Source: Leptogorgia sarmentosa (taxonomy: Eukaryota). Taken from it: DNA of 64,000 nucleotides. The DNA is taken from the NCBI GenBank assembly GCA_964658305.1, contig OZ210884.1, forward strand, positions 4,588,001-4,652,000. The letters are read 5' to 3'. The notes under the pieces are model-generated. The model was given only the letters and a program-made list of their open reading frames with translations, did not search any database and was not told where the DNA came from. Made by a program: the position numbers and the translations under genes. Within the stretch, counting starts at the first letter, position 1, and each line of letters starts with the position of its first letter. This document shows, one piece after another, positions 1-38,010 of the stretch.

Positions 1-120
1 CTCTTATCTTTGTTAGTTTTTTGTTGATGCTATTCTGAATGTATATTCTCACTGAGCATGATGGGATACGAAGACACGTAGCCTTGTCTTGTTCCCAGGC
101 TCTAAGAATCCCGATGACGA

Positions 121-258: not shown

Positions 259-325
259 TATCGACTTAAATTATAAACTGTTGGACATCAAGAGCTAACG
301 CTAGCTAAAAAGAAGTATAGCCTAC

Positions 326-12083: not shown

Positions 12084-12210
12084 GTTTGACGACACATTTG
12101 GTCTGATGAAGTCGTTAATGGTGTATGGCTCGCGCGTGGTTCAGACGCCAATTGAAGAGGGCGGAGATCCTAACATTGGACCCAATGCAGGCCCTACTTA
12201 CTTCAACTAA
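12084..12210 (+). other. Orphan terminal exon of a paralogue of the VioB-like gene (opposite orientation)
   Basis: Acceptor tttttccag, then FDDTFGLMKSLMVYGSRVVQTPIEEGGDPNIGPNAGPTYFN*. It has the same 127-bp length and phase as exon 16975-17101, with 35/41 identical residues. AATAAA at 12449. No upstream exons seen in the window. Confidence 0.85.
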
Positions 12211-15912: not shown

Positions 15913-16974
15913 ACTATTCGACTATCTGACAATGTAATGATAGCTCCATCTACGTACGCGTCAGCATTTAAATCCTTACATTGTTAGCATGGGAAGGTGA
16001 TAGAATGAAAATTGGTTCAAGTTACTTCGTTCCAGGAAATAGGGATTTCTGCCGGATGTTGCGTAGCTTTCTGCCAAGCGTGAAGCACCTGAATCAATAA
16101 TTATTTTCAAAAATCATGTGAACTGAGCAGGTTATTTCCGCATGCAAGGCGTAATCAAACTTTTTCGAAGCTTATCAGACGTGCATTATTAACAATGGAC
16201 TTTGAGATTTGTGTATTAATTGGTGTATTGGAGTTTTTTAATGAGGGTTACGTCATTATTTTGATGTGAGATAATTGTTGTTTGCCACATGATCAGCAAA
16301 ATGTTAGGGCGGGAAATGTTAACATCATGACGTGACAATTTTAATTCCGCCTTGTAACTGTGATATCGCTTTTTTTCGCGCTTAATAATAATACAAGTAT
16401 GCAATATAACAGAGATGCTGTCATATGTATAGGGACAGGCCGATTTCAGTTTTGTCATATCCCTCCCTCGACGTCGTTCCCATGTCAATCACTAGCTATA
16501 ATGGTTTACGTTTTTGGCGGAATGATTTTCTTTTCCAAAACTTCCAAATAATGGCAGCAAACTGTTTTGAAAAGGAATTTTACCGCTTTAAAGGAATTTT
16601 ATAATTATAATAAGTTTTGAAAAGACTATTTGGTATAAACTAATTTAATACATTTACTCATAGTATCGGATATGGAAGGACATAAAAACACATTAACAGA
16701 ATTGGGAAAATGTGAAACTATTACTGAAATGTTTCTAGGACTACATGTACATGGATCCCTTGTTCACTACTGCTAATAATGAAATATTAATACTGCTAAT
16801 ATAATTGAAATATTCATCTGTATCAATTTGAGGTATATTGTTACAGAATCTACTGCAATTGCAACGTGTATAGCTAACTAGAAGCAACATTACCGCACGT
16901 TAAGTGATGGCCGCACGAAAGCATAAAAAAGCGGCGAAATATGTTGCATTGTAAGAAATAGCTTCAAGGAATTA

Positions 16975-19900
16975 TTAGTTGAAATATGTTGGACCTGCGT
17001 TAGGCCCAATATTAGGATCTCTATCGTCGTCAATTGGTGTCTGAACCACGCGCATGCCGTACACAATCAAGGACTTCATCAAGCCAAAAGTGTCGTCAAA
17101 CCTGTAGAATAGAAAGGGAAATTCTAATTCAAACTCCAAACAGTGCGGTAGTTTGAGAGCATTAAAAATTATCAATAGTTAAACCGGACAACCTAAGAGA
17201 CAGTCATTTCCAGTCTTCCACAGATAAAAAGGGAACGTGCCAATCGACCATTGCCCAATAACCGCGTATTTGACAAACTTTGAAATAGAGGAAATTACAT
17301 TATCACAAAATTTTGAAGTTTGGTTGCAAGATATCGTAAAATGAGGAAAATATTTTCCCGTGAAGTTTTTATTGGAGTCATATTCTTTATTAGCTACGCG
17401 CAACAGTCACTGCCATATTTCAAAATGTTTTTCAATTCTAATAAAAGTTTGCCTAACTATAGGGCAAGTTTAAACTGAAGCCCGTAATATCTAATTTCAA
17501 TTGATAATTATATAAACAATTATACATTATATTGAGCTGCTTTTCATCGATTTTTCTCCTGTTTGCTTATGGATATCTGCTACCGTTAACAACGAACTTG
17601 GCATTTGTTATTGTAAAGTAAAAAACTTGTTTGTACCTGTCAACATTTCCATCAAATACGCTCTGCAATGTCTCCAATAGCCTCCTGTAGATATCGTTGA
17701 AAGCTTGCGCGTTCTTATAAGCTTGACTGTCAGGCTTGTATTTGGACATTTGCGGATCCTTGACCACAGGCCAGACTCCAGTTTCAAAGAAAGGAATTTT
17801 GTCACCAAGATATGCATAATTTTCGTGACATTCCTGAAAATCATTATTATTATTATTAATTCGCCAAGTTCACAATATAACATTACATCCGAATACGTCA
17901 CAAATACAATATATACATTGATTATATCTAGTTGAGGTATTTATATTATTTGATTGGTTGGCAAGAGGACCTCAAGAAACCATCAGGCTTTTTTTAAAGA
18001 GATCCCCACATAAAATTATTATTAAATTACAGTTTGATTTAGTACAAGATGTAGAGTTTTAGATTTATAACGAATTCTGATTCGTTATAAATATCAAATA
18101 TCATGGAATAATTTATAAAATTATTCTTCTCGTTTTTATTTTGTTTTTTGTTTTGCATTTCAGAGATTCCAGGGTTTGTTAAACCTGTGACTCTGTACGT
18201 ATCTTTAGAGCCAGGGCTATCATTGCATTACTATAATAGCCAAATTTTAGGATTTCATCCCTCAGAAATTTCGTTACTATTGTATTGTCATGGGAACTGC
18301 ATATTTTTTAGACCAGAATTTTAGGGATTTATGCAGCATAAAAGTTTTATAATTCGATTCGAACATTCCACTCGTATGGTTGCTTTCGAAATAAAACCTA
18401 CCTCTTCGTTGTTGTTGTACACTTTTTCATTGGTTACATTAAACGTCGTAATATGTCTACCATGGAATATGGATGAAAATTTGAAATAGTGAGACAACTC
18501 AGAAGAATCAACATTTTGTTGCAGAGGGTTGTATGGCGAAGCACCTTCACCTTGATCCACAATCGCCTTAATTGCTTCCAACGCATCTTTGTAATTTGTT
18601 ACTTCTCTGAGATTTTTGGGATTTGACCACTTTATTTGTCTGGTCTTTCCGGTAAAGATCTCTTTTTTCCCGCATATGCTCAATTGGCCAAGAACATAAA
18701 CAACAGCCATGTATAGGTCGCCAATTGTTTCATGGTTTTGCTCCGTTAGTTTTCGGTTGGGAAGTGGAAAGACACCCAACGCCTCGGCACATTGTCCTTG
18801 ATAATCATCAGGTCCTTTGATGAAAAAGTTTAAAAAAATGTGTATTTATCAGCAACATAAAAAAGTGTATTTATAATTATTAACTACTCCTATTTGGGAA
18901 TAGGACCCGCCTTCACGACACTCTATTCAGTAAATTGATCGCGATCTGAATGCCTATTTACCACTACAAGAGTAGAAGAGTACATGCCAAGATCGTGGAA
19001 ACCATCCGATATCTCTTTACAATGAGGACCAGATGAAAAAGTACAGCTCATTATTTTTTTAATATTCTTACCTTCGCTACTTACTGTTAGATACTGTAAG
19101 TTGGCTATTTCAAGAAAATAAAAATGTAGATTAGATGGGATTAACAAAGATTAATTGTGATTGATTAACACAGATTAAATGTGACAGACAGATGGACGGA
19201 CGGACGGTTTTTGACGTTCAAAGTTTGACGTTGGAATTTTTACCTGTAGAAATTTTATTAATCAAGGCCACCAGCTCATGGTCTTTTAGAACATACGAGG
19301 GCTCTTCAATTTCCATGTAAACATTATTAATCTGTTGGTTTGATATTTTATTGATACTTGCTATCATATTAGGCCGGCATCCTCCGGGAAGATGAGTTGG
19401 AAACGCGGGGACAAATGTTTTCCCTAAAAGATACGGTCGTCCCCCAAGACCATTTATGATATTTGCAACTTGTGCAAAGTGAAACATCTCGTCCACGATA
19501 ATCTGGTGTATCATTTCCTTAACTTCTTGATTCTGCCATGGTTTTATTGAGAGAAATCCATTCAGGTAAACAGGTATTGTAGCGTGCTCCAATTGTAGCG
19601 CAGTTTGAAGCATATCTATCAAGTGTTGTTTGGTTATTTGTTCGGCATGTGTGAAACCGAATTCGGGTTTGTCTGAATTCAACCATTTTAAGATCATCTT
19701 TGTCTTACCCTTTGAAAGATCACGTGTCACTGGCATAAACTGGGGATCTTGAAAATCTAACGACATTGCTGTAATAATATGACATTTTTTCTTTATGACA
19801 CTGTTGTAATCTGCCAGGTCTACAAAACCTCGCATCACAGGAAAGAGGTTGGCATAAAGTTGAAAAATAGGGAGAATGTTTGGGAGCCATTTTGGTCGGT

Positions 19901-22704
19901 CGTTGACAATTACTTCATCATAAACATGAATACATATTGCTGTGTTCAATGCTTCATTTCGATCTGGATTCAAGGGATACCCATCAAATGTATACTGTAA
20001 TGTATATACCTGACCATCAATAATCTTTCGAATATTATTGGGGTTATTCATGGCGTAAAAGTAATAGTAGTAGATGCTGGGATTTTTGCTATCTTTAAAC
20101 AATCCAAATGGCTGTTGGGGTCCGAGTGGATGGTCCCGGATAATCGATTCAGCTGGTTCCAATTTCAGGTGGATGTCTCGACCAGGCGTTGGTTTTTTAC
20201 CAAAAATAGTGACAAATAAACTACCATGTACGATTTCCTCATATTCTGCTCTGAATACAAAATGAGTGTTTGAGCGAACATTAATTCCTTCTTTATGTTC
20301 CGCAAGGAGGATCTTCAAGCAAGTGCCATCTTTATCAATCTGCAAGAGAAAAAACACCTTTTAGATCATATTTAAATCAAACGCGAACTTTTTGCCAGAA
20401 TTTTCATGTGGAAGTCACGACCCCTTTTTTTGACCCCGATAGATCGGCGACATATAATAATCGCGTCATATTTGGGTCATATCGTCCTTGAATGCCATAT
20501 TGACATTTTTTGGTGACATGCGAAATCATTGTTTTTAAAAGACAATTACTGTTGAAGACACTCAGTAGTCTTGTACCATCGCCATAACCAGGCATCGGCT
20601 GTTTTTTCACTTACTGCGTATATTTTCAAGGTTTTGACCGAAATTTGGGCTTTATTAATTTTGATGTTTGCCTTGGTTATAAAACTGTAAAAACAATCCA
20701 AAGCTACATCGCAGCGTGTAAAGATAAGTCACCTTCAAATGCTCATGAGCCAGGTAAGTAACGTGAATGTCAGTCAGTAAGACTGCAGTCCTGACTAGTA
20801 CCATCTTTCGCAAGGTATGCCGGTGTCCCAGTTGATTTGGACCCCTGTGGATTTGGACCCCCGTTCCATATAATTTATTATGCTAGTACTAATACAAACC
20901 CTCGATTACTTATCTTTTATTTACCAACATCGCCAATGTTTGACCAGTTTTATGACGGTGTGTATATATTATGATCCGGTTTGAAATGATCAAATATGAT
21001 GTACTGCCACTCTGCTCTACATACCTTCGCTAAAACAAATTGTTTATCCAGGCTGCCTTTTAAGTGACTGGGAATGTCAATCTTGTTTATTCCGGCAGTA
21101 TAACGATATCCGCCATATTCGTCGTAGTAAACTCTTGAGATCCACGTAATTTTATCCAAGCAATTCGGAGTTTCTATACCGTTTGCTTCATTACCAGCAT
21201 AAACACCAAGGGCTAATTCCCCAACTGAAATAAGAACATTTCCATTTCGGCCAATAGCAAGTGTGTTTCCTAGGTCAATATAAATTTTCCTTTTGCTTTT
21301 GTCTACAGTAAACGGTGCGTAACTAAGTTCTGTTGTTGCTTGTAAATGGTGTAGTAATCGACCATGGTCAAAAAAATACGGTGCTTTTTCTCCTGCCAAT
21401 CCGATTGAACCAACGATCCTAGCGTAACTATAGTTAGCAGCTGGATGCTCACCCATCATATCGACATTGAAACATATGGACAATTTTTGATTTGGTCCAA
21501 TGTTTTCTCTGAAGTGTTGAACGATGGGAGAATCATTGTTTTCAGCAGAAAATTGCACGTTGTTGAGGACACTCTGTAATCTTGTACCTTGCCCATAATC
21601 ATCATTAGGCACGTCTATCATTTTGTACCACAATGACTGAAATGAGGCGCGTTCCATGTCACCCTTAAAGAAGCCTCCAACATCTATCGACAGCCCATAT
21701 ATTTCAGAAACTCTCCCCTGTACTTCTATGTCCAAGTCGACAATCTTTGCCGAAACCTTACCATTGGCCTGGTCTAAAAAGATAGCAAAATCAATTTTGC
21801 ATAGTCCGAGGTATAAGCTTAATAATTATTATTAATAAAATAAGAAGTTGCATATAATTATATATTGTATGATTTAATAAAAAATGTTGTGCGGTTCAAA
21901 CAATATCCTTTTCTGCGGCATTTTTTTTCTTCTAAAAATGCCCTGATTGTGCTAAAATGCTTTACCTATTTGACGTGACAAGAGTAGCTATATGAATCTT
22001 CATATCGATCGCGATAAAGAGTTATAGATGGGGAAGTTAACATGTACAGTTAATAAGCACAGGAAAACTTCACCGGAAAAGATAGAGAGTCATAAATCGT
22101 CTGTTAAATTATTTTCATTTTCCATGAGCAACGAGAAAACTAGACAAACTTTTTAGACAACTCCCCGACATTAAAGTAGATTTTAGGTGGCCTTTCAATA
22201 TTGCCGCAATAATTATCATAGCAGATGTACATACTATCGATATTTTAGTGCTTCAATCCCAATTTAAAGCGTAGAATGGATAATTATTGGTTAATTGAAC
22301 GGTGCGAACCTCAAAACCCTGAAATTTTGACCCAACGCAGCATTCTGCATTAAACACAAGAATGAGAACCTTTTCCAAGCACTATATTATTAATTTTGTG
22401 ATTTTTCTGAGTATTATATAGCTAAGCGGCCTAGGCCCACCTTTAATTGTGGCTCCAGCCAGGGGATCTTGGTGGGACTGGTAAACACATAAACTTTCCG
22501 TATGGCAAACTCTTGTTACGGAGACGTCCACCAGGCGAAAGTCACTTGATCCCGAGGGATTCCAATTCTCCGCAGTTATTTTTGTATCTGCAGTAGCAAA
22601 GGTTTTAATGTCGAAATTGCTGAAGACGTTGTTCAATGTTGCTGAGTCGATCTGGAGTTTTCCAGCAAAGTTGATCCTTGGAAACATGATGTAAGAATGG
22701 TATT
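16975..22704 (-). CDS. VioB/RebD/StaD-like (iminophenyl-pyruvate dimer synthase-type) region with ferritin-like domain; C-terminal part of the gene above
   Basis: SYIMFPRINFAG..D.ATLNN, NWNPSG...FRL, SAKIVDLD.EVQ..VSEIYGL and FMPVTRDLS resemble the N-terminal part of bacterial VioB-like proteins. LQTALQLEHATIPVYL..IIVDEMFHFAQVANIINGLGGRP, MEIEEP, TIGDLY, IVDQGEG, SHYFKF and NAGPTY match the VioB-type ferritin-like family (Pfam PF12902) by recollection. Confidence 0.88.
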
Positions 22705-25700
22705 CTAGTGATAAAAAGAGGATTACGATTTAGAATATGAGTAAACTATACAGTTACTGCATGTCCAAAAGTCTATAAATACTTGTGACAAAATTGAAAA
22801 TAATATTTCATCACAAATTGACTTAATCACCAATTAAGTTACGTATATAAAATTTAATACCTCTTTCTTAATTAAACGATTGGTTTAAGGGTGTATAGAC
22901 AGGGTATAAATGCATGCAATCGTTTTGTTGCTCATAAAACGAGAGGAACGGTAATATTATCTAAAAAGTAGCTAGATAAGTAAAGAGGGTGATCAATTTG
23001 TTGGGCAGTGACTATATAATTATTATGAACAAAACACGGTACGGCAAATATTATTTTTAAATTTATTTTTATTTATTAAATTATTACCCCCAGTACGAAT
23101 TATTTATCGATATTCACCTTCTTTTTTTGCTGTCACAGACTTGTAGGCACATTCTATTTTTCCAGAGGGATACTTCAGTGCTCTGCACTGAAAACCAGAA
23201 ACATTTCCTAGATGCAGATATTAATGACCTTTTAGATTGTTATTTTTCAATGAAGGCTAACCGAGAAAGTTTTTTTTTCACTGAATTTCCTCTAAAAAAA
23301 CGTACCTTTACTGCGAGTTATTTCTGTATCCGCTGTAGGGGATGGAAATATAGCGATAATTAATTTCATTTGTTAGCTAGGTAACAAATTGTGCACGCAA
23401 GAAGACAAATATTTCACAACATTTTACCTTTTGGGCACGAATATACTTTTGGGCATTCTGGAGTTTCGTTCTCTGATGTAAGAAACAAAAGAACAATATT
23501 TTCAATCTGCATGTAATCCTAACTGTTTAAGAGGATAATCAGTTAGAAAGAGAACATTTGCCAAGAAATTACGGGATTTGATAATTGATAAAAAATTGGC
23601 ACTTCTCCAGACAAAAAAGGTCTTTAATTTAATTGTTACCGCCACAAGTGGGAATGATATCTACGAATAATATGTTGTTACCAGTATTATCTGCACATGT
23701 CTTCTTGCATTCGATAGCTAAAGAGAAAAAAAAACATTGTCAAGCTATCTATTGTAAATCCTTAAAATGTTAAATCACGAAATTCTATAAGTAGCAGATA
23801 AATGGCTTGGTTAAAAGAATAATGGGGAAAATACGGTAGGCGAATTTGGAATTCGGTGAATGGTTAGAAAACACTAAATTATTTCTAACCTTCTGCACTG
23901 CATGTACTAGAACATTTCTTCAAACTTGAAGCTAAAATATGATTATTTATAAGTTAGAATATGTTCAGAGCGTTTAATTAACAGATAATTCTAACATAAC
24001 AATGGATGCTAGTAGTTACATGTAGTACGAGGGAAAAAGACTGAAATTAACATTACTAGCCATTGACTTACTCGTACAGCTGCTTTTTGCGTCCTTGCAT
24101 TGCTCATAGTTTGCTGAAAAAAATGTGTCCAACTTTCAGAACAATGTTAGAGGAACGAAAGAATTTAATAAAATTTTTTTTTTCCATTTTATGCAAGCAT
24201 GACAATTAATTTCATCGAAATTCTTTCATTTTCGAAAACAACGTGCAGGTATAGCTACGAAATTTTTTAACAAAAAGTAAGATCTGATAAATATTTCAGA
24301 ACCGTGTGTTCTCTCGTTTTTAAGTTTCTTCGTATCACGTTATAACTTTTCGCTTTGCTGATGATAAGCATTAGGAATAAACGTTCGTATATGTTGAGAC
24401 AAAACACCGTTTTCAGTTGAAGTCACCTAACCCTAACCCTAACCCATACCCTAACCCTAACCCTAACCCTAACCTTTACACGAAAATATGCATGTGGAGG
24501 CAGTAAACACATTATCTTCCTTCTTTTGTAAATTTCCTCACAGTATGGACTCTTTCCTTTGGATATGCAAAGAAAACATTCCCATATCCTGACAATTTTA
24601 AATACTCGATTCAGAAGATGAAAGAAACCCAAAATAATATAGTTAATAACTATAGTAATTTAATCTTGCCACTATAAAGTATTTCACCCCACCATGGAAA
24701 GATATATTATTTCCCAAATATTTAACTGAATTTATAATGCAACGTGAATATATAATAAAAACAATTATACGATAAAAACAATTAACTTACGCGTTTCTTT
24801 CGTACAATTTCCACAGAATTGAGCTAAAGTAAAACAAGAGAGACTAGCGAATCCAATTTTAGTTAAGCAATTCACACCAATGGCTAGGCAAATGCAACAA
24901 TATTACAGTGCAGAGCAATAAACCTTGGCATTATACTTACCAAAATAATGCATAGCATTATTTATTAGATATAAGTGCGGCCAATGTGTGAGCAATAATT
25001 GATCGTCATGCATATAAGTAGAAAAAATTACGATTGTGCTTTACCTAGTTGTTGACAATGAACTTGGCAGCTTTGTTCTAAAAAATAATTACTCGCAATA
25101 AATTATCAGAAAAAAGAACTTACTTCGCATGCACTAATATAAGAATTCACAAAGTACTCCATTTTAAAAATCAACGGTGGGAATTTAAGTTTCTTCCATT
25201 CTACTGTAATTTCAATTAAATTTTAAAAAACCACACTAATTGTTGAATAAATGCGGATCTCCAGCTATATTGAAAACAAGGGCTATAAAATTGAAAAGGT
25301 GAACTGAAATAATTATTATGTAATTGTTATCTGGTCCTAGTCCATTTTTATTCTGACTTTCTGTCAACCAGGCCAAGGGCGCTTTGCGTTTGAATTTGAT
25401 TTGAAATGTTGTGTAAAAGACGAATCCCTAAATTCATCTCCGGTAGCGGCTGGTGTTAAATTAGGAAAATATAAAACCGCTAAAAAGCTAGAACAGGAGA
25501 ATGAATTGAAGCAAATGCAATACAAGTTATACAACTGGTCCGGCAGATGAGTAATTTACAGCAAACTGAAGTAATCTAGATTTGACACTCGCCTTTTTTG
25601 TTGCAACAACCTTCACAATTCGCTGAAAGTGAGAGGAAAGGTATAAAATGTAAATTACGAAAGAATAAAACTGTAATATTTCGGTAACAGGAGTTACTGC

Positions 25701-28700
25701 GTTATTAATTACTGTTTAAATTTTGAGATTTCCTGTCATTGGAGTCAGAATTCACTGTTTGCATAAGCGCATCTGTTTAGCGTTAACGCATTGACTATAG
25801 CGCTTTCTAGAGATTGAGACCATCTCCGTGATTAATATAAAGTCTAAAACTACGAATATTTCTATGATACTAAGGAGTTTTTTGCTATTTGAATTGGTTG
25901 CATGATAGAAAGATTCACAAAAAAAATATCAAGACTAACAGATATTGATCTATTAATTCATGCGTCATATAATTAGCTAGCTCGAACGATTTGAAATTTC
26001 GATAAATTTTTTCTCAAGTAACAAAAGATATAATGTCATACATTGGTGATCATGGGGATATTAAATTGTGTGAAACCATAGCAACTATTCTTACCGGCAC
26101 CTGCAGAGCACTTTCTGCAACCACCTACAAAGCAGATAGGTATGAGAAATTTTTAATGCATCTTAAAAGCACAAGAATTTTATCAGTAAATTTAAAAACA
26201 GTCTTTCTATAAACTACTTAGCAATTGGATTACGAACACGAGTTTCTATGAGGTGATATCAGAATCAGAGATCAAACACAAAAATAATGTAGAAAAAATA
26301 AGTTGAAAATGCGTCTCAAAGGAATTTTCTTTAATGAAAATTCACATGTTTTGCTACTCGCTTTTTTGGGGACACCCTGTACTCGGTGTATGGTAGTAGC
26401 TATCACAAGCAATATAACAAAATTTCCAATTGGCCCTGGAACCTGTTGATTGTTTTTTACTACAAAAGAAATACTGAAAAAAGTATTGGTACCTCTTTCT
26501 CCGATTGTTTGCACAACTGGGCAGAAGTAACTCATCTTTGGCGGACGCAGAATTTCGCCATCAGCTAAAATAAAAAATCTATTAACACCATAATTTTTAT
26601 AAGCTGTAATTATTGAAATGAACAAATTTGAACTGCATGGTAGAGCACCCAGCCAGATTACAATGTTGTGCGAATCCATGTCCTTATATTTAATGTAGCT
26701 ATAACTTTATATTAATATAATTATATTGTAGATAATTATTTATACCGATAATTACAACGACAAGAATCTAATTGGCTTATTTGATAAGAATCTACATGGT
26801 GAAAAATATCGCAAACCGAAAAATTGCATGATTGTGACCTTTCAGTCTTGCTATTATCATTAGGCTCAAACAATTGTTGGAAAATTGCAGCAATTCTAGA
26901 GCCAGAATAAATCTCTTCGTTGAAGAATAGGTGTAATACAATGATAATCATTGTTGAATTTTGTCATCGCTGCTGGTGAAATAATAGACTAATTAAAATC
27001 GAGTAGTACGCCGTCAAATACGACCTGAAAATGGCTTTAACATGACGTGGCATACAGGTGCTCACATACGTTATTAGACACCTTCATTTTGATGAAGATT
27101 TTCCCTAAACAGGACACCAGCATAAATTAATTTTTACTTTTCCGACATCAAATGTTTCCAATGATTAAAAAATTCCAATTTGAAGATGGTAGATCCGCAG
27201 ACAAATGTCATAGAAAATGCCAATTTGCATGGTCCATATTCTGTATCCATTCATGCTGTATTTGAATACCGATAATTTAAACGAAACGTTTTTCGCAGGT
27301 GTTTTCAAGTTGTTCGCTTAATATATAGTTTCATATTGTCATGCTTGGATCAGTGAACCTTTGTGCCGGTGAAGAGATTACCAGTTCTTAAAATTCTAGC
27401 CTTAATTTCCATAGATTATTTGGTTTCGTTCAGTATTGCATTGGGGGAACTACTTTTGTACGTCGTTTGATGCTAAATGATTATCAGAACAAATAGGTAT
27501 ACCAGCGTTCCAAAATGAACTAGGAGATGCAATGAAAGAAATAATTAAATCCTTAATTAAGCTAAGCTTTTATTTTACCTCTGTTTTGACAATTTGATCC
27601 ATTGTATCTCGCTGAACAGTTACATTTTAACTTTCCATTCTCATCGATACACTTTCCATGGTGTAAGCATACAACATCGTCACAACTGTTAACTATAGGG
27701 CGTTAAAAAAAATGAAATTATTGCTTCGTAGCTACAGTATATCTTGTCTGGAATTGAATTTTAAGTTCTTGGCTAGGTAATAAAATGGATATTAAAGCGT
27801 TATTGACCGAGCGTGAGGTCTGTACTGTGAAATATCGGTAATACCACGGTCCGGATAGGGGTTTTTACGGACCGCTTGTCAACCAATCAGAATAGAGAAT
27901 TTGGAAAAGCCATATAATAAAAGATAATAGCGAATAGTTTAGGTAGCTATAGATGATAATCATGTCAGGCCTAACCATACATTTTGCTTGCGGGATATGA
28001 TTAATTCAGTACAATGCTCCAGTTGTAGCGAGCAAACTAATGAATTAAGTGTAGAGTGCCAAAACACGCATGAAGGTTTTAACGCGTATAGTGAGAGCCG
28101 GATGATGTGCAAAAAAATGCAGATTGGATTTCAATGAAATAGTATCGGAAAGCAAAACAGGGTGAGGCACATTCCCCATTAAGATACCTTTTCCTGAACA
28201 ATCTTCTCCAGCAAATCCAGGTGGACAAAAGCACGTTGCACTTCCATCTTTATCGGTCCAGCACATTTGTGATTTGGCGCAAGGATTTCTAACACATTTA
28301 TCTAAAGATACATTCACAAAACATTTAACTATATAAAAGCACATACTGTATATGTGTTAAAATGTATTAAAAGATATATATTTTAATTATGTATTTTTGC
28401 AAAAATAGAGCTGCATGTATAGCTAACTATGATAATATTTTTCAGTGTGGTAAGTGATTCCTCAAACATTTGGGTGAAAATCGTTTTTGTCGAGTACCTT
28501 CCAAATCTGTGGATATGTCTTGTTCACAAGGAAATTCTAGCAAGATAAATTACAATAAGAATGTAGGACAACTACATGCCTGTAATATGCTTTCATAATC
28601 AAGGATGGAGACACGTGTTACTATACGTATACCAGTTTATGCCTTTTAAAACAGCGATGTTTTTGCTTTGCACCTTTACGTACCTATAATTTCGCAGTTC

Positions 28701-31700
28701 TCTCCAGAGTAACCCGCTCCACAAGAACACGTATAGGAACCTCCGTCATTTTTACAAAGGCCACCATGTTCACATGGATGGTCATCACATGTGACTATAC
28801 GTGTATGTAACACAAAGTAAAAAAGTATATTGAAAATTTTTCATTCAGTAGGTTTTTAGCTTACCGACATGCGTCGTTCAAACTTGAAAATTTCCATTTA
28901 CCTTTGAATTCACAATATTCTCCTGTATACTTCTTGCCACATGAACATTTTACTTTTCCAGCAACCATTTCGCACTTTCCTTCATTACAAGTTTTGCTGG
29001 AGCAGTTGGTAACTAAAGATTTCAGTGTCAAATTTTTAAGTGAATAAAGGACCGTGCTCAATGAATTTTGCATTATGACAAATTAGAAAAGTATTCTGTA
29101 GCCTGTAGGTAGCAAAAAGAAAATAAAGTAGGGGTGAAGATCCTACAAATATGATCTGCCTAAGAAAGCTATTTAATTTAAAATATCCGGGCAGTAAAAT
29201 TTCGACAGAATTCTTGAAAGTACTAAAGTATAAAAGTATTTCTCTAGAGTCAATGGCAAAAACACAAGAGTATATTGTTGAATTACTTGCTACTTGGCAT
29301 CGATTTCCAGTAAATCCTTCTTTACATATACACTGAATGTTGCCAATTGAGTTAGTTGTGCAAAATCCGCCATTCGTACAGGGACTTGATGTGCATTTAT
29401 CTACATTAATTCAAGATTCGCATCAGACTCAAGCGCATTTTCTAATAAACCTAAATGTACTGTATAATACTCAAATAAATTCGCTCTTCCACCTAGCAAC
29501 CGCTGGGCTAAAAGAGCTGCTAGCTCCTTATATCGTTTCTCCTCATCACAAACATGTCTCAGTGTAAAGAACAAGCAGGTTTAGGAGCCCTTCAAAGGCA
29601 ACGCGTACGTACGGAAGCAATCCAGGGCAGGGGGACAGCATCTTGAAAAGGGGCAATTTGCTTTACTTTGGCAAATAAGCCGAACTGACTCTCTTTATAA
29701 AAACTATAATTGAGATATAGACTGCCATGGAAAGATCATGCTTTCGGCAAAATTCTACATAAATTCAGTAGCGCATATAATAATAAAAAAATTCTGGGGA
29801 GGGAGGTTGCATGGCTAGGCAATATTTTCTACAGAACCTGTATCATCACATTTAGGGCCAAGAAACCCAGTGTCTGTGCAATCGCAAGAACATCTCCCAG
29901 TATTGTTATCTGGTCGGCATTGTCCACCGTGATGACAAGGATTTGAAAGGCAAGGATCTATGAAAAATATAAAATAATATTATATACGGCTTACTGGCGC
30001 TGAATAAATGGTACCTTATGTCATGGTCTCTTCAAATAGTTGAGTACACGAGAAAAAAAATCTGCTGCATTGCATCATGGGCACATGACGAAATGCATGT
30101 CAATAAATAAAGTTGGTAGGTTTTGAGTAACATCGCGTTTTGGTTTTTATGGCAGGAACCAACCAAGAATTGAGCTTCAATTTGACTGTCAGAGATTGTA
30201 TAACAATTATAATTTCGTTTGAGCATCACATGCTGTATTTATACCAGAATCCCTTATCATTCATATTTTCAAAATTATTTTTCTGTTGCTTGAAAGTGTA
30301 TAGTCAAATATTTTGTTTATTTTCTCACAACGTAGTCGGCTGCAGTTTAATTAGCTTATACACATGGAAGCCTAATTTGAATAGGAAGGGTAATAAAAAA
30401 GGATCAAATTATACAAACAAGTGCTAAGACGAAGCGACACATTAAATACGAAACATTGGAATTCTAGATTAAAATTTACAACATTTTCATTCTTTCGAAC
30501 TGCGTGCAGCGATTGCATGTCTTACCTACAAATTCACAGAAGTAGCCAACGTAACCATGGTAACAGTCACACTTGTATTTTCCTACATCATTCATCTGAA
30601 TGCAAGTGCCATTCATACATGGTGTTACTGACGAACATGGACCTTAAAGTAATTACAATCTAATCTAAGTGAAACTGTATAGGCGTACGTAGACTCGTAC
30701 AGGGAAGACTTGCGTAGCTGGCGTTTCTGCCTCGCTAGGCGCTAGTGCATTTTGTTAGACAAAGGCCAGGATAGTAAAATAGCATGCACGGCCGAAAGGT
30801 TTGCAATTTAAACTTTTTGTTCCTTTCTTCTTCCCTATATTTCCATTCATTCGAGGTGTCTGTATGTGATAAATAATCATTGGAGTTTTTTCACTCATGA
30901 TTAAACGGATTTATTAATTCATTCCATATCTAACCAATCAAGCCATGTGCCGCTTGTGGCCACCAAGGGGGAAATTGTGCATGTTTACCTGGAAATTGAC
31001 AAGTCTCGCCAATTGTGTTTAGCGGGCAACGACAATGGTGTAATTTTGGATCATGTTCATCATTCACACATCTTGACATTGGTCCTTTGCAAGTAATGTT
31101 ATGGCATGGACCTGAACAAAGTATTAGTTTAATCTTATAATGCAATAATGAGGGCCCTGAAGGGGTTAAAAGGGAACTGGTATTTGAGGCTAGGACCAGG
31201 ACTAGGACGGGCTTTGTGCTCTTGAGTTCTAGGATTTAGCCGATATTTGGGCTGGAAAATGGGCAGAGGAACCCCCCTTCAAGACCCTCAATAATTACCA
31301 TACATGTTCAACAGTAGTCGAACAGCAAGTAATAGATCATTAAGTCGGTTTTTAGAGTCTCCAAGTCCAACACCACATGAGAACGCTGCAAGTAGCTAAA
31401 CGACTTAGAATTACATACGTATTGTCTCAAAAAAAGGTAATTCAACTTTGGTGTGTCTTGTGCATTATACTTTGCCCGAATTCGAGCAAGTATCAGCCAG
31501 TTGAAAATTGCCTGTACTGTATGTCGCATATAATCGTATATTTTCACCGTTAAGAATTACGACTGTGTGAGCCTGCTGAAAATTTAATATTTCCTCGGGG
31601 ATTAAAAAATGACGAAGTTCACTTCAATAAACAGCTTGAATATATATAACTATTACCATCCCTAGCTATCAGGGTTGCCAGAAATTGTGAATAAATTAGC

Positions 31701-34700
31701 CAAACTTTGAACAATGTTCCTTGTTTTTCTTTGCGTTTATCTTTTGCTTTCATTCTTAAAGGTGTTAATGACGGTTTGGCTAATTTATTAACGCTTTCTG
31801 GAACTTCTGCTCGCTAGCTATATTTTTAGCTGCGAGCTATGTACCATATAGCACAGGCTCTTGTTATTGGCTGGTTTCAAATTAATTTTCAAACTTCTCC
31901 CTCAATGCAATGTACTTCGGTCCGGGCTTCAGAATGTTTTGTTTTCACATACCTTCGATGCAAGAGCTTCCATTAGCCGCAAGAACATAACCTGTTTTAC
32001 ATCGCAAATCGTACGATCCGAGTGTGTTCACACATTTAATATTCTCGTCATCCAATTCAGAACATTCGTCAAAATCTGAACAAAATTGGGAAAAAAGGGC
32101 CAGATCAGATATTACTGGAAATGAATGTCTAGAGTATGAGAACCTTTTCTTGCAAATAGCCAAACTAGCGTATGCGAAGCAGTTAACGTTCAACAGGTGA
32201 CGTTCAATGTAGCTATAACATAGACTCGTTGTAAATAACCATCTATCGCAGTGCGCGGATTAAAAATGTGCTGTATAACGATTAATGCATGGAGTTTCTG
32301 GTAACTGGCCATTTTTCTAGCATATTTCCAGTGATAAAAAATCTTTGTTGCTGTATAGGTTTTGGACTAGCTATTATCAAAAGAAATCTGTCCGGCAGAC
32401 CATGAACATGAACACTGCGGTAATATATATATCTCAATTGTGTATGTGATTGGTCTATTGGGCTATGGTGTTTTGTTATAGGAAGATAGTTTGCGAGATT
32501 TCTAACTTTGTTATAGCATATAATAATTAAAACACAATCGCTTGGGAGCTAACACGTTTTATTATACCTGTACAACTTTCTCCATTGCCGGTATAGCCAT
32601 TCGCACATTGACATTCGTAATGGCCATTAATATGCACACATCGCGCATTTTCATGACATTTCGTGCACACATTAATATCTAAGAAAAATAATTATATTCA
32701 GATTTTTGGCTTGCTTTAGTTCTTGTTCATTGGAGACAGGGACGTAGGAAGTAGGAACGAAGGGCGTAGGCAAAGAAGCCAAGTAAAAAGGACGAGTTTG
32801 AACTCCGAAATGGACATATTCGGCGATCTAGAGACCTTGCATGTTCAAAATTTTCTCGCTCGGTAACTTCACGTGATATCTATTTATTCCATAATTTTTT
32901 TTAATGTCGCCTATGCATTAGTCCTTTCATTAGCATATTTCAAATCCCCAAATTAAGAAATTACAGTTTTTCGTTGCTCAACAGTTTATAGACCAATATA
33001 CAGAAACTAAATTAGAATGAAATGTGGATGTGCGGAAATCTGAAACTTATTTCGGGGTTTACAAGAATATGAGATGTGAAATGATCGTTAATAATCTCTC
33101 ATGTAAAATTATAATTTTAAAAACATCAATGTAGCGCTACTCTATTATACAAGGTTAACACTACCTTTGAAGTAGTGTGTATGGCTAATTTGACTGGGCA
33201 AGATTCACTGAATCTTTAAAGCAGCGGCCTATACTTTTAGCCAATCAAGATTAACTGGCGCATGCGGGGCGAAATAAAATTACTTCACATACAGTATGAT
33301 TAGTATCGTTTAGCCCTCACGCAGTTTATTATTTACCACAGTGCATGATCAAACCAATGATAAACTTTTATATACCTTCACAGTTTTCTTTGTCTGAATC
33401 ACATGTGCCTTCGGATGAACGACCGGATATGAACGAAGCAATTCTCACAAAACCTGAAAAAGAAACAACCTGAATTGTTCAATCGCGTTAAAGGTCGACT
33501 AATGTGTGTGATATAAATGCACCAAATAGTTTTTGGCTGCTAAATGCATTCTGTACCTCCCATGAGCCACCTTGTTTTTATAATTTCCATAGAAATTAAA
33601 ACCGATAGCTACATAGTTCCAGTTCTTATTCCCTGAATGTCGCGTGAATATCAACCTGGTATTTCCACAGCTCCAAAATTTGCTGCTCGGTCGGTAGCAT
33701 CTTTGTTGTATGATTGGATAAGTTTACAATACCGAATAATACAATAATTTGTTGCTAACAAGACGTTAATATTTCCAATTGTGGTAATATATGTTAGTAT
33801 ATGATTATAAGATTTTTTGCTGAAATTTATGAATATCTTCGGGTTGCAAATCATGTTCAAATGATGCCATGGAGGAGTTAGACACCCTTGAATGCGAGTC
33901 TGCGTCGATATATCATGCGTATAATATGATATACATGGCTATGATTGGAATTCACAATACAAGGTCACAAAGTTCAGAAACAATTCAAAATAAAGATTCA
34001 ATCCATTTGTGAAGGAGGGCTAAAATGGCAACTATAGGGCTGAAACGTACACTATTTACTATTAGAGTCGCTTTGAAGGAGCCAAAACCGGCCTAAATCT
34101 GAGGGCTATTTCGCTCCAAGGGGCTGATTTAAAATGCGAGGGACTAAATTGGAAAATGAGGGAGTCGTTATAGCAAGTAGGGTCGAATAGTTTAATTTGT
34201 AAAGATAAAAGGACTCGTACATGTTGTTTAAGATTTGCCAGGTTAAAACGGCTGTTGGGTAGGGCCAAAACAGCTTCAGTCATTAAGAGGCTGAAATTTA
34301 ATTTGGGGTCGTTAGAAAAAGAGCCTTTTTACAATTTACGTACATGCATAAATTTGCACATGTGTAGTGTTTATACATTCAATTTCCGCACAGTAGGATA
34401 TATCCGTTTGTTGTTAACTGATTGCAGCTAGAAAGTTAAACACACGACGGCTGCATAGAGCCCTCAATCCCTGATTTAGCTATCTTTCAGCCAATAAAAC
34501 TTACACCGAAGTAGGTTACACCGTAATCCCTACGCTGTAGTATAAAATTCATCACAAAATTCATCGTTGTGCCGGTGCGCATGCAACTTGAAAATTCAAA
34601 AAGTTAATTGTTTACATAATCCTATATCTGCATGTTGAAGAAACTCTTCTGGTGTACCAACCAGATACATTTCATACAGAAATATAAATTCTACTCTATT

Positions 34701-34895
34701 TTTTCTCCCAACTGGAGTTGGAATGAATTGGTGGCTATTTTTAAACTAATATTAGTGGTTGCGCGTGCATGCATCTAGCTCCCGTTGTCAAACGGATACT
34801 AACAATACGATATCATGCGACTCACCAGTGCAGTCAGTCAAATTAAGTGATAATCCAACCAAACAAACAAGTAGTTTCATTGATAACGGTGACAT
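16975..34895 (-). CDS. Predicted secreted protein: signal peptide + 10 EGF repeats + Cys-rich linker + VioB/RebD-like ferritin-fold enzyme (~1463 aa, 23 exons)
   Basis: Hand-spliced exons: 34895-34826, 33453-33376, 32678-32568, 32075-31953, 31111-30989, 30642-30526, 29957-29838, 29400-29287, 29012-28902, 28794-28684, 28301-28188, 27692-27579, 26124-26095, 24823-24791, 24113-24072, 23472-23428, 23207-23118, 22704-22441, 21773-21025, 20339-19244, 18814-18402, 17833-17637, 17101-16975. All junctions are GT-AG, the total is 4392 nt, and the frame stays open. The EGF block has no stop codon of its own. The join through the micro-exons is the least certain part. Confidence 0.72.
24426..24474. repeat. 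Short interstitial telomere-like (CCCTAA)n tract
   Basis: About 8 copies of ccctaa, one imperfect (cccata), inside an intron. Confidence 0.85.
27579..34895 (-). CDS. Signal peptide and tandem EGF-like exons; N-terminal part of the gene above
   Basis: MSPLSMKLLVCLVGLSLNLTDCTG is followed by ten 111-123-bp phase 1-1 exons, each one EGF-like module. Examples: DINVCTKCHENARCVHINGHYECQCANGYTGNGESCT, DPCLSNPCHHGGQC..CDCTDTGFLGPKC, DKCTSSPCTNGGFC..CICKEGFTGNRC. Confidence 0.9.
31150..31289. mobile_element. Small MITE-like insertion with imperfect TIRs
   Basis: gagggccctgaagggg ... ccccttcaagaccctc form an imperfect inverted pair, with aataat repeated directly on both flanks (candidate TSD). Confidence 0.55.
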
Positions 34896-36951
34896 TGCAA
34901 ATTTGAAAGCAAGAATTCAGTGCCTCAAATTTGTTATCCACTGTGATACGTTATGGAAATGAAAGTACCTTATATTTGGATAGGTGCTCAGTAATTCAAG
35001 AGTTTTTATGACGTGTGTATGTATGTTGATTGACGTATCTATGTCAAGGAAGTTACAAATGACTTGGAGTGAGAGTATCTCCAAGTAAGTTAGCTCAGAC
35101 TAAAGGGGCGTGATCATGAAGACTTTATGCGTATAGATGACATTTCGGGCGAGCCGAGCGGTTTTGACTAAAACCCGGTGTCCAAGGGAACAAATCCTAT
35201 CGTCTTCGTGGCTATGCTGGTCATCAAATCTTTATCCCATTCGATTCCCATTTTTATTTGGGGTTTTTTATGAGTTCCAATCCCAGTGCATTAAATCCCA
35301 TTTTCCCAGGCCCTTTTGGCAAATCTCATCAGTTCCCATTCTACTCCTGCAGCACCCTCTAGGTGCTTGAACGTTTACGGTCTGGTAGCAAACGGCTATT
35401 CTATGATCGTGTTAAAAGAATATTTGCAAGCCAAAAATAAGTTTTGTTTGTAAACGAATCCGCAAATTATTTCGAATTTTAATTCCTTTAAATCTTGAGT
35501 AATTTTGCCCGACATTTCCTTATTTCTTGCCCCGCGGAAGTGTATCGTTTCATCTCACCGCCGACGACGGTAGGTCACGCGCCTGATGATGAGTTCTCTA
35601 GTCCTAGCTGTCTTTTTAATTCTTGATATTGTATGAGTCTTCCATGGCTCCCCCGTATTTTGAAATCTCAATTGGAACAATCGCAGTGCCACGACACAGG
35701 ACGCGCACTATTGCCTATACCGTAATAGAAAATCTCTGGATTATCACTGAGTACTAATCCGCCAAATCTGCGGGTATAGTCGTCGATTCCTCACGGAGGA
35801 AGAGCCCTAAACCGAAGGAGAGACCCTCGTGCAAATATTAAGAATGTGACATCATCCAGGGTGGGGGGGGGGGGTGATTCCCTATGTGATCGATGCGTCA
35901 CTACAGCAGTATTACGGTTATAACCTTTAAAATGCCTTTATGCAGATACTAAAGCGCATTTCATCCTGTCTATAGTAATGGGTTTCCCTCGTGAAATATA
36001 TATAAACGAATACATCCATCCAGTCCGTTATGCAGCTCACGCACACACGTGACGTATTTTCATACTGACATTTTTTTATTGCAGAATATTTTTCACCACC
36101 ACCTGTATGTTATTAAACATGAATTTGGTGTAAATACACGATTTATACTTGCACGAAATGTTTCGAAATGTTAGAGAAAATAGACGTTATTCCTAATAGA
36201 CTTGGAACAAAACCATTTTAAGACAAAATTCACTAGTATAGCTATATTCTTTTCTATCTAAAATTCGTTCTTAATTTGCATTAATAAAGATGAAAAAGTT
36301 TTCCGTTTACAAAGCTTTAACATTCTGGAATTAAACAGTGAATATATTGAATAATGCGATTGTAATTTGCAATGTTATACTTTATCAATAGTCTTTACTG
36401 TTGCTACCCTCTTATCTCAGTTATCTGACAACCTTGAACGTATATGCATGTAGCTGTATGTATGCATATGTACTGTAAGTGTGAAGTGTTGGAGAACTAT
36501 ATAATTAATACGTCGTAATGCATGGCCATGGTTATTAAGATACGGGAAAAAACGCAAAGCATTATTATTAAGTTTTTTTTCATTAATGTACTGTCAGAGG
36601 ACATCATTTACTTTCCAACTGAAAATCGATGGAGTTATTATTTTAAATTAATATTTAATGCGCGAAATTAAATTTGATGTCGATTTTTTGTATAAAGTGA
36701 ATATTTTATTGTGAACATCACATTTTATTGACATTAAAACGCCTGTCACAGGATTTAAATCGGCATGATTTTATTAAGTAGATTTTTTTTAATATTCTCG
36801 CCCACCAATCAATCTTTCGAAATTAGACATGCAATATTAAATGTTTGCTCAGAAAATTTTCGCATATTGAAATCTTCATAAATTGAACCGGAGATTGCTC
36901 ACAAACACCAAAACTGTATTGCCTTGCAAATAGGGAGGATTGTACACTACA

Positions 36952-38010
36952 ATGGATAGAAACATTAGCCGGCCGTTATCTTACAGCGTTGGGGCAGAAA
37001 AGCAATGGAATGACTATGTTGTCGCGACAATATTAACTTTGGTTTTGATATTTGGTCTCGCTGGGAACCTTTTGGTTGTTTGCTCTATTAAGAACCAGCC
37101 ACGGTTGCTAAGGAGCAACTACTATTACCTCGTTCAAATTTTAGCAGTGTGCGACATATTCCATCTGTTGACTGGGTTGAGAATGAACTACGAAAACTGG
37201 TCCCCCAAATGGCTGTTTACAAGTACAGTCGGTTGCAAAATTTGGTGTTATCTGGAGATGTTTTCTTGTACCTCCGGCATCCAAATTATGATTATCATTT
37301 GCATCTTTCGTTATCGTGCCATTTTAAAACCTTTAAACCCCCCTGTTTCTCAAAAGAAGTTAAGATTTATACCACTTATTCTCTTCGGTATCTTAACCAT
37401 CTATCTCATTCCTTACATTCTGTCTTATAAGTTTTCTCCATTAAAAGGATGCCACATGGAATGGTCAAACAACACCTTTCGCCTCATTTATACTTTTTTT
37501 TCCATTAACATTCATTATATACTGCCCGTTACAATCATGTCAGTGCTTTATTTCAAAATTTGCAAAGCTTTAATACAACAAACAAGGAAAATGGACTCTT
37601 ACGATGGGCAGCAATCACTTATCGAAGCCCACAAACACTCGCAAAGAGTTCGCCACCACCGCAATAAAAGGACTTTTATTGTGAGTGCTGTGAGCGTCGG
37701 GATTTTCGCTGTAGCTGTGCTACCTTTCGAAATATGGTGGATTTCCGATGCAAACGATTTTGGATGGTTCACAAACATTTACACGAGGAGTTTGTTTTAT
37801 GTTTCGTACATAATGGGTTCCTCTTCGGTTAACCCTTTGATCTATGGAGTGCTAGATCAGAAACTTGTCGAAGGGTTTAAACGATGCTTTCAAAAAACGA
37901 AAAGAGTAGCTGTAGTGGCAAGTGGTCAAATAATGGTGAAAATAAACGGAGCCAAATCTTTACATGACACAACGACCAAAGAAGAAGTAACACTTGAAAC
38001 ATGGAAATAA
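36952..38010 (+). CDS. Class A (rhodopsin-like) GPCR, neuropeptide-receptor-like, intronless
   Basis: Seven hydrophobic segments: GN in TM1 (GNLLV), LAVCD in TM2, CKIW at the start of TM3, FRY in place of DRY, YILP in TM5, LPF in TM6 and NPLIY in TM7. First ATG at 36952. Confidence 0.93.
   Translation: MDRNISRPLSYSVGAEKQWNDYVVATILTLVLIFGLAGNLLVVCSIKNQPRLLRSNYYYLVQILAVCDIFHLLTGLRMNYENWSPKWLFTSTVGCKIWCYLEMFSCTSGIQIMIIICIFRYRAILKPLNPPVSQKKLRFIPLILFGILTIYLIPYILSYKFSPLKGCHMEWSNNTFRLIYTFFSINIHYILPVTIMSVLYFKICKALIQQTRKMDSYDGQQSLIEAHKHSQRVRHHRNKRTFIVSAVSVGIFAVAVLPFEIWWISDANDFGWFTNIYTRSLFYVSYIMGSSSVNPLIYGVLDQKLVEGFKRCFQKTKRVAVVASGQIMVKINGAKSLHDTTTKEEVTLETWK

What the first reader, a model, noticed from the sequence alone, without database searches (positions are those of the whole stretch)
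16975..34895. Animal secreted EGF-repeat protein fused to a bacterial VioB/RebD-like enzyme
Seen: one open reading frame can be spliced with canonical GT-AG sites from a signal-peptide exon, through ten EGF exons and five Cys-rich micro-exons, into ~950 aa carrying VioB-like motifs (FPRINFAG, AKIVDLD, MPVTRDLS, LEHATIPVYL, DEMFH, DQGEG, SHYFKF). The EGF block has no stop codon, and the first enzyme exon begins at a phase-1 acceptor. Known: VioB, RebD and StaD are cytosolic bacterial heme enzymes that oxidatively couple indole-3-pyruvate imine in violacein and indolocarbazole synthesis. Inference: a bacterial-type oxidative coupling enzyme has been recruited to the animal secretory pathway with EGF tethers, possibly for extracellular chemical defence, pigment or matrix cross-linking. 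I know of no described protein with this architecture, but could not search.
Basis: partly seen in the sequence, partly recalled or inferred. Interest (0 to 1): 0.93.

Follow-up and report, generated by a model that had tools for sequence, protein, structure and literature searches.

The report
Secreted VioB-like oxidase family in animals
A soft-coral-type gene is spliced into one transcript that joins ten EGF repeats to a distant full-length relative of the bacterial violacein enzyme VioB; it belongs to an unstudied, likely ancient family of probably secreted animal proteins predicted to be heme-and-iron oxidases, whose substrate is untested.

Summary
The fusion is real. One 4,879-nt spliced contig runs from the signal-peptide exon to the last enzyme exon: 31 exons, 1,567 aa. 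The same architecture is in RefSeq, uncharacterised (Dendronephthya LOC114515704, 73% identical in the enzyme part).

The enzyme part is homologous to VioB/StaD over its whole length but only about 20% identical, and it fails the VioB family cut-off. Its predicted parts are a beta domain, an Ig-like domain, a small cytochrome-c-like domain with two invariant methionines (likely heme ligands, also invariant in VioB/StaD), and a ferritin-like bundle with intact di-iron ligands.

It is not a recent coral recruit. Relatives in sponges, cnidarians, amphioxus, a tunicate and an acorn worm form one clade, most with signal-peptide-like N-termini. EGF, FN3, TSP1 or LDLa modules were likely added separately. 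The closest bacterial relatives often sit by ebo genes; none had a StaO-like tryptophan oxidase nearby.

Best reading: a tethered extracellular heme/di-iron oxidase coupling an unknown aromatic substrate. Ten literature searches found no description.

The parts
34826..34949 (-). Exon 1: 5' UTR and signal-peptide-like N-terminus (ATG 34895)
   Evidence: X5 contig starts at 34949; most hydrophobic 19-residue window of the protein
33376..33453 (-). Exon 2 (78 nt, two Cys)
   Evidence: splice-site scan; covered in X5 and required by contig coordinates
32568..32678 (-). Exon 3, EGF 1
   Evidence: PF12947 37.9 bits
31953..32075 (-). Exon 4, EGF 2 (calcium-binding type, four Cys only)
   Evidence: PF07645 32.5 bits
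30989..31111 (-). Exon 5, EGF 3 (six Cys, no Pfam hit)
30526..30642 (-). Exon 6, EGF 4
   Evidence: PF00008 29.8 bits; joints
29838..29957 (-). Exon 7, EGF 5
   Evidence: PF00008 22.6 bits
29287..29400 (-). Exon 8, EGF 6
   Evidence: PF00008 33.3 bits
28902..29012 (-). Exon 9, EGF 7 (weak hit)
   Evidence: E 0.02
28684..28794 (-). Exon 10, EGF 8
   Evidence: PF00008 36.7 bits
28498..28536 (-). Exon 11, 39-nt spacer
28188..28301 (-). Exon 12, EGF 9
   Evidence: PF00008 31.8 bits
27579..27692 (-). Exon 13, EGF 10
   Evidence: PF00008 26.1 bits
26493..26564 (-).
   Evidence: joints 26564/27579 and 26124/26493
23306..26124 (-). Exons 15-23: nine micro-exons of 27-45 nt (26124-26095, 25622-25593 with GC donor, 25077-25045, 24823-24791, 24113-24072, 23931-23890, 23717-23682, 23472-23428, 23332-23306). 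Cys-rich linker; aa 449-608 hold 20 Cys and are conserved in the Dendronephthya orthologue
   Evidence: no Atlas look-alike
23118..23207 (-). Exon 24 (90 nt), last linker exon
   Evidence: joint 22704/23118 in 3 of 3 RNA-like runs
22441..22704 (-). Exon 25: start of the VioB-like part (SYIMFPRINFAG = bacterial N-terminus)
21025..21773 (-). Exon 26: rest of the N-terminal beta domain (no fold match found)
19244..20339 (-). Exon 27: Ig-like domain, Met-Met domain and first half of the ferritin-like domain
19650..19916 (-). Small helical cytochrome-c-like domain without CxxCH; invariant Met1115 (codon 19835-19833) and Met1148-Pro1149 (19736-19731), predicted heme ligands
   Evidence: 96/96 family and 11/11 VioB/StaD rows; fold
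19479..19589 (-). Predicted di-iron ligands Glu1197 (19589-87), Glu1230 (19490-88), His1233 (19481-79)
   Evidence: 93-94 of 96 family rows and 11/11 VioB/StaD
19072..19104 (-). Exon 28, 33-nt micro-exon in a loop of the ferritin-like domain
18402..18814 (-). Exon 29: second half of the ferritin-like bundle, Glu1412 (18548-46) and His1431 (18491-89)
   Evidence: PF12902
17637..17833 (-). Exon 30
16843..17101 (-). Exon 31: C-terminus, stop 16977-16975, 3' UTR

Best explanation
The gene is one spliced transcript for a 1,567-aa protein that is likely secreted, likely held on matrix or cell surfaces by its EGF repeats, and predicted to be a heme/di-iron oxidase that would couple an as yet untested aromatic substrate outside the cell.

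Shown: the transcript, the domain order, whole-length homology to VioB/StaD, and conservation of the candidate metal ligands.

Predicted: a ferritin-like four-helix bundle holds a carboxylate-bridged di-metal site (E1197, E1230/H1233, E1412, H1431, with E1291, Y1204 and Y1357 also conserved). A cytochrome-c-like domain holds a non-covalent heme b between M1115 and M1148.

Inferred: a six-coordinate bis-Met heme would relay electrons while the di-iron site activates O2 or H2O2. This would give one-electron oxidation and C-C or C-O coupling of indoles or phenols, either free metabolites or Tyr/Trp in secreted proteins.

Inferred history: one acquisition at or before the base of animals, a signal peptide added then, loss in many lineages, and later separate tethering by exon shuffling (EGF and FN3 in octocorals, TSP1 in Styela, LDLa in one amphioxus model).
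For: Single transcript. Orthologue with the same architecture and three paralogues in Dendronephthya.

Homology to VioB/StaD over both halves.

Structure: model pLDDT 88, pTM 0.83 for the orthologue's enzyme part. The C-terminal domain matches ferritin-like 3HL1 at Z 27.3, rmsd 2.6, 260 aligned; the next hit is Z 11.1. Ligand conservation: M1115, M1148, P1149 and R1152 in 96/96 family and 11/11 VioB/StaD rows; the five core di-metal residues in 92-94/96 and 11/11. The Met-Met domain folded alone (pLDDT 88) has cytochrome PccH as best match (Z 6.9, rmsd 2.9, 80 aligned), and 9 of the top 14 rows are c-type cytochromes or their domains (heme type of FoxE and 2BLF_B recalled). VioB uses heme b and has catalase activity (PMC9705886, passages).

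Secretion: 28 of 35 named animal homologues have a hydrophobic N-terminus, against 0 of 24 bacterial-type ones. All exons from 2 to 26 start in phase 1. Other extracellular modules are fused in relatives.

Tree: animal clade 96/96, cnidarians+deuterostomes 99/97; FastTree 0.991 on all 107 rows.
Against: No activity, cofactor or localisation is measured for any member.

Identity to VioB/StaD is only 19-21%, and several family-conserved residues differ in VioB/StaD (e.g. D628, N634, K706, P1202). The substrate cannot be transferred.

The cytochrome-c match is below Z 8, which the tool says may be a common arrangement; the Met-Met geometry was not measured. The signal peptide rests on hydropathy only. 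Demosponge models mostly lack one (P0075 0.85), possibly because the models are truncated.

Tree limits: no mixture model; biased composition in at least 12 rows; the sponges form two groups; the root inside the family is open; most non-animal rows are unnamed. Bacteria-to-animal direction is therefore inferred, not shown.

One genomic run (X1) carries a 4-nt insertion in exon 1 that would shift the frame, so the gene may be dispensable in some individuals.
Confidence: 0.5

Rival explanations
1. An extracellular peroxide scavenger. The heme/di-metal unit would work as a catalase or peroxidase in mucus or matrix, like rubrerythrins or Mn-catalases, with no small-molecule product.
For: VioB is reported to have catalase activity (PMC9705886, passage). 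Mn-catalases and Dps-like proteins are among the fold neighbours of the ferritin-like domain (Z 8.7-11). There is no consistent biosynthetic partner in most bacterial loci: 58 of 80 lacked an EboD-like gene.
Against: A 350-residue beta domain with invariant residues shared with VioB/StaD is kept, more than peroxide removal should need. Bacterial relatives often lie beside ebo genes or in NRPS/P450 clusters.
Confidence: 0.2
2. A true VioB/StaD-type enzyme: it would dimerise indole-3-pyruvate imine made by a secreted animal L-amino-acid oxidase, giving bis-indole pigments or defence alkaloids.
For: Whole-length homology and shared invariant residues. VioB/RebD/StaD are the only characterised relatives (PMC9705886, PMC3640393 passages). 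Secreted L-amino-acid oxidases exist in animals, and sponges and tunicates yield bis-indoles (both recalled).
Against: TIGR04492 gives 18.5-20.5 bits against 1250. VioB/StaD form a separate long branch (100/100). Three StaO-like queries found no relative in the ORFs of 85 loci around closer bacterial homologues, whereas 6 of 6 StaD-like loci had an adjacent ~500-aa FAD-motif ORF.
Confidence: 0.13
3. An extracellular ferroxidase or iron-handling protein, working like bacterioferritin (bis-Met heme plus di-iron centre, recalled) but monomeric and tethered.
For: Ferritin-like fold and ligand set; bacterioferritins and Dps are fold neighbours; weak bacterioferritin sequence hit, E 0.001.
Against: The bundle is interrupted by long insertions and flanked by three other domains, unlike cage-forming ferritins. 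Iron transport genes did not appear among the commonest neighbour clusters I annotated.
Confidence: 0.12
4. A non-catalytic matrix or adhesion protein, or two separate genes joined by an assembly artefact.
For: Frameshifting allele in run X1; the full-length join is from one short-read contig.
Against: The joint into the enzyme exon is seen in 3 of 3 RNA-like runs. The Dendronephthya orthologue has the same fusion. All candidate ligands are intact.
Confidence: 0.05

Closest known systems
VioB (iminophenyl-pyruvate dimer synthase, TIGR04492) and the chromopyrrolic acid synthases RebD/StaD
   Same: Collinear over about 790 columns. Same N-terminal motif, invariant Met/Met-Pro-x-x-Arg and di-metal ligands.
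   Different: About 20% identity, far below the family cut-off. A separate clade; predicted secreted, intron-split and EGF-fused; no tryptophan-oxidase partner seen.
Dendronephthya gigantea LOC114515704 (uncharacterised; paralogues LOC114525845, LOC114525846, LOC114538017)
   Same: Orthologue: hydrophobic N-terminus, EGF array, Cys-rich linker, enzyme part 73% identical.
   Different: The window protein has two extra N-terminal EGF exons. Two paralogues carry FN3 domains and lack the Cys-rich linker. None is characterised.
Uncharacterised bacterial PF12902 proteins of about 900 aa, fused or split in two genes, often beside ebo operons
   Same: Closest non-animal relatives, 34-36% identical over the enzyme part.
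   Different: No signal-like N-terminus (0 of 24). About half are split (an ORF of 820 aa or more in 42 of 80 loci).
Caulobacter CC_0557 (PDB 3HL1), stand-alone ferritin-like protein
   Same: Fold of the C-terminal domain, Z 27-28.
   Different: Lacks the beta, Ig-like and Met-Met domains; structural-genomics entry, no function in its title.
Class I c-type cytochromes (best match PccH, 4RLR)
   Same: Likely the same small helical fold, with Met-Pro before the C-terminal helix.
   Different: No CxxCH in the enzyme part; a second Met is predicted in place of His, so the heme would be non-covalent.

Membership tests
VioB equivalog (TIGR04492) | Score of 1250 bits or more | tested here: not met
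   18.5 bits for exon 27, 20.5 for the full orthologue; true VioB scored 1779-1908
VioB/RebD/StaD superfamily | Homology over both N-terminal half and ferritin-like half | tested here: met
VioB/RebD/StaD superfamily | PF12902 domain with intact E / ExxH / E / H ligands | tested here: met
   PF12902 105 and 51 bits in two exons; ligand table
VioB/RebD/StaD superfamily | Binds heme b | not testable with these tools
   Only the invariant Met pair and a weak fold match
VioB/RebD/StaD (enzymes) | Couples two indole-3-pyruvate imines | not testable with these tools
   needs an assay
VioB/RebD/StaD (enzymes) | Works with an L-Trp oxidase (VioA/RebO/StaO) encoded beside it | tested here: inconclusive
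   No whole genome is held, and animal pathways need not be clustered. No StaO-like hit in 85 loci of bacterial relatives; VioA itself was not used as a query.
   Hydrophobic N-terminus, 10 EGF exons, 14 NxS/T sites in the model; SignalP not run
Ferritin-like di-metal proteins (3HL1 type) | Four-helix bundle fold | tested here: met
   Z 27.3, rmsd 2.6, 260 aligned, on the orthologue's model
Class I cytochrome c | CxxCH covalent heme motif | tested here: not met
   The only CxxCH in the protein is at residue 54, in EGF 1
Class I cytochrome c | Cytochrome c fold | tested here: inconclusive
   Best Z 6.9 and 9 of the top 14 rows are cytochromes; nothing by Foldseek or HMM
EGF-repeat proteins | Tandem EGF modules in phase 1-1 exons | tested here: met
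   8 of 10 over a Pfam cut-off; phases

The most novel reading that the evidence does not exclude
Marine invertebrates (sponges, corals, tunicates, acorn worms, amphioxus) carry their own ancient, secreted family of VioB/StaD-type heme/di-iron coupling enzymes. With them the animals themselves make dimeric indole or phenol alkaloids, pigments or matrix cross-links outside the cell, chemistry usually credited to symbionts. The family also reveals the unknown cofactor layout of VioB/StaD: a CxxCH-less cytochrome-c domain with a bis-Met heme feeding a ferritin-like di-iron site.
Probability: 0.25. Interest if true: 0.9.

Novelty: new variant of a known kind. Interest (0 to 1): 0.66.

Why it matters
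It points to an unstudied animal enzyme family whose only characterised relatives build violacein and indolocarbazoles. If the family is catalytic in the same sense, it would be a host-encoded route to oxidatively coupled natural products or matrix cross-links in marine invertebrates. Repeated fusion to EGF, FN3, TSP1 and LDLa modules says that where the protein is held matters. The deep alignment also gives a direct test for a gap in enzymology: no VioB structure was available per a 2021 review (PMC9705886), my PDB searches found only 3HL1, and two invariant methionines are now named as candidate heme ligands.

Tried and rejected
Whole genome: not held, so paralogues and a partner oxidase could not be sought.

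Run search: no run was on record as RNA; X4-X6 were judged RNA from their spliced contigs.

Independent start at ATG 22687: not supported, since the acceptor at 22704 is joined upstream in 3 of 3 runs. A minor internal transcript cannot be excluded with contigs. Bacterial contamination is rejected: 30 spliceosomal introns and animal neighbours.

Recent octocoral-specific transfer: rejected by the tree. The IQ-TREE run used 45 of the 107 rows, picked by me. Labels of P0018, P0077, P0083, P0103 and P0015 come from tree position only.

Sequence search of PDB found only EGF hits, 3HL1 and a weak bacterioferritin. HMM, Pfam and Foldseek searches with the Met-Met domain gave nothing. The N-terminal beta domain gave no fold match in the whole-model searches and was not folded alone. 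The Atlas gave no usable hit for the Cys-rich linker. A complex job (Met-Met domain against ferritin-like domain, heme and iron riding along) returned 'no answer', with the alignment not used.

A LodA/LodB link, reported for fungal PF12902 genes (PMC4417212, passages), was seen in only 1 of 85 loci.

Literature: ten searches listed nothing on an animal member or on the Met-Met/di-iron layout; I saw listings only, except for the papers cited. The library lacks most subscription papers, including the primary RebD/StaD biochemistry, and I opened no supplements. Earlier-finding look-ups by sequence, place and animal keywords were empty.
Full report
OBSERVATION. The region 34895-16975 on the minus strand holds short Cys-rich exons and then long enzyme-like frames. 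PF12902 hits two of the enzyme exons at 105 and 51 bits (cut-off 22.3). No genome is held. Six runs hold the stretch. Three of them (X4-X6, one study, kind not on record) give contigs that skip introns. Laid on 16000-35900 they show 11 joints from the last exon up to 23890 in all three runs, including the key joint 23118>22704 into the first enzyme exon. X5 alone, laid on 23860-35400, lists 15 further joints of the same 4,879-nt contig and places its start at 34949; 4 joints were cut from the table. My 31-exon model reproduces the contig's coordinates (one boundary corrected) and translates without a stop to 1,567 aa. 29 introns are GT-AG and one is GC-AG. Eight of ten EGF exons pass a Pfam cut-off.

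WHAT IT IS RELATED TO. The best hit is Dendronephthya gigantea LOC114515704 (1,488 aa, EGF + PF12902, 75% identical over exon 27), followed by FN3+EGF paralogues at 40%. The window is therefore most likely from an octocoral. The orthologue keeps the EGF array and the Cys-rich linker. A search of 1.84 billion representatives with the orthologue's enzyme part gave 374 hits at E 1e-30 or better, of which 150 were listed. Named members come from Oculina, Sanderia, Branchiostoma (many paralogues), Styela, Glandiceps, Corticium, Oscarella and Ephydatia. Most lack EGF. Styela members carry TSP1 and one amphioxus model carries LDLa. 28 of 35 named animal proteins begin with a hydrophobic stretch, against 0 of 24 proteins with the bacterial MSYL-type start.

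RELATION TO VioB/StaD. The NCBIfam VioB model gives 18.5-20.5 bits against a cut-off of 1250. I fetched five true VioB (over the cut-off, 5 of 201 genomes) and StaD/RebD-like genes (14 of 251 Streptomyces genomes had matches; six fetched whole). A profile of 95 family members hits them at E 3e-31 to 8e-48, mostly in both halves. hhalign gives probability 99.9% over 789 columns at 20% identity. The window protein is 19-21% identical to them, 34-36% to two close bacterial relatives and 31-36% to non-octocoral animal ones. It is a true but remote homologue in a sister family.

HISTORY. With VioB/StaD as outgroup, animal proteins form one clade: 0.991 by FastTree on 107 rows and 96/96 by IQ-TREE LG+G4 on 45 rows. 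Cnidarians (98/94) and deuterostomes (100/98) are sister groups (99/97), and two sponge groups branch outside. This roughly follows the animal tree and suggests one acquisition at or before the base of animals with vertical descent (inferred). Caveats: some labels are from tree position, the non-animal rows are mostly unnamed, composition is uneven, and the root among non-animal groups is open. No protostome, vertebrate or unicellular holozoan name appeared in the named hits, but I did not search for them directly.

ANATOMY AND MECHANISM. AlphaFold2 on the orthologue's enzyme part (pLDDT 88.2, pTM 0.83) shows four parts: a beta-rich domain (about 1-350, no match found), an Ig-like domain (353-481, Z about 8-9 to filamin/invasin types), a small helical domain (482-565), and a ferritin-like domain matching 3HL1 (Z 27.3). 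In the window numbering E1197, E1230, H1233, E1412 and H1431 are kept in 92-94 of 96 family rows and 11 of 11 VioB/StaD rows, as are E1291, Y1204 and Y1357. This is the pattern of a carboxylate-bridged di-metal site (established knowledge of ferritin-like proteins). In the small domain M1115, M1148, P1149 and R1152 are invariant in all 107 rows and no His is conserved. Folded alone from the window's own sequence, it matches the cytochrome PccH best (Z 6.9), and c-type cytochromes fill 9 of the top 14 rows. That is suggestive only: Z is under 8, and Foldseek and HMM searches are blank. There is no CxxCH. VioB is described as using heme b and having catalase activity, with no structure as of 2021 (PMC9705886, passages); RebD/StaD are called heme-dependent oxidases (PMC3640393, passages; PMC12710047, passages on VioB). 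I recall reports of extra non-heme iron in RebD/StaD but could not check them. I infer a bis-Met heme b as electron relay and the di-iron site as the oxidant, doing one-electron coupling of aromatic substrates outside the cell (0.5).

SUBSTRATE CLUES. Around 80 bacterial loci (best 80 of 561) the commonest neighbours are ebo genes: an EboD-like cyclase in 22 of 80 and EboE in 16 of 80 (20 and 15 of the 59 loci of 14 kb or more). Several loci are close kin, so these counts are not independent. Of five plasmid loci, two carried ebo operons and a third TatD plus the cyclase. An actinobacterial NRPS/P450/glycosyltransferase context recurs in 7-9 loci. Three StaO-like queries found nothing in 85 loci, while 6 of 6 StaD-like loci had the adjacent flavoprotein. 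The ebo cluster is needed for export of the scytonemin monomer before its oxidative dimerisation by ScyE (PMC6282210, abstract and passages; 'ferritin' does not occur in that text). Earlier AI notes report the same ebo link and mention thallusin; I did not verify the latter. These contexts favour small-molecule oxidation over the exact VioB reaction.

NOVELTY AND VERDICT. The architecture is annotated in RefSeq but uncharacterised. Ten full-text searches listed no paper on animal members or on the proposed cofactor layout; subscription papers are largely outside the library. The EGF fusion itself is ordinary exon shuffling. The notable points are the ancient, probably secreted animal family of VioB/StaD relatives and the testable Met-Met heme site. 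Verdict: real; new variant of a known kind; interest 0.66.

Noticed in passing
window 12084-12209 (+): An inverted copy of the gene's last coding exon, with an intact acceptor and stop. It differs at 23 of 126 nt (15 synonymous, 6 non-synonymous codons), and the flanks do not align. No other exon of a plus-strand paralogue was found in 1-12100. It may end a paralogue lying beyond the window's left edge, with the A2M-like gene nested in its last intron, or be a relic.
   Followed up: partly
window 34859: Genomic run X1 shows a 4-nt insertion in a short repeat in the signal-peptide exon, at the full depth of its one contig; it would shift the frame. It is absent from the three RNA-like runs. Possible null allele or contig artefact.
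   Followed up: no
window <397-10881 (-): Alpha-2-macroglobulin/TEP-like gene: PF07677 hit at 397-942, signal-like start near 10881.
   Followed up: no
window 13384-15921 (-): MYND-finger + DUF4470 gene directly downstream of the finding.
   Followed up: no
window 36934-38010 (+); 52187-53614 (-); 58208-58555 (-): Single-exon rhodopsin-family GPCR; a voltage-gated potassium channel-like ORF (named from its motifs, recalled); an EGF-containing exon of another gene.
   Followed up: no
window 56779-58256: 742-bp tandem duplication, 99.5% identical; recent duplication or assembly artefact.
   Followed up: no
window 24420-24484: Telomere-like TTAGGG run inside intron 18.
   Followed up: no
L001:1498-4559: A LodA/GoxA oxidase and partner flavoprotein lie 3.4 kb upstream of the split homologue and ebo operon in Mycetohabitans. 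LodA (2YMW) and GoxA (6BYW) also appear weakly (Z 2.7-2.9) in the fold search of the Met-Met domain.
   Followed up: partly
proteins P0021, P0026, P0029, P0037, P0210-P0226: Amphioxus carries an expanded set of EGF-less paralogues with signal-like N-termini; these are simpler candidates for expression.
   Followed up: no
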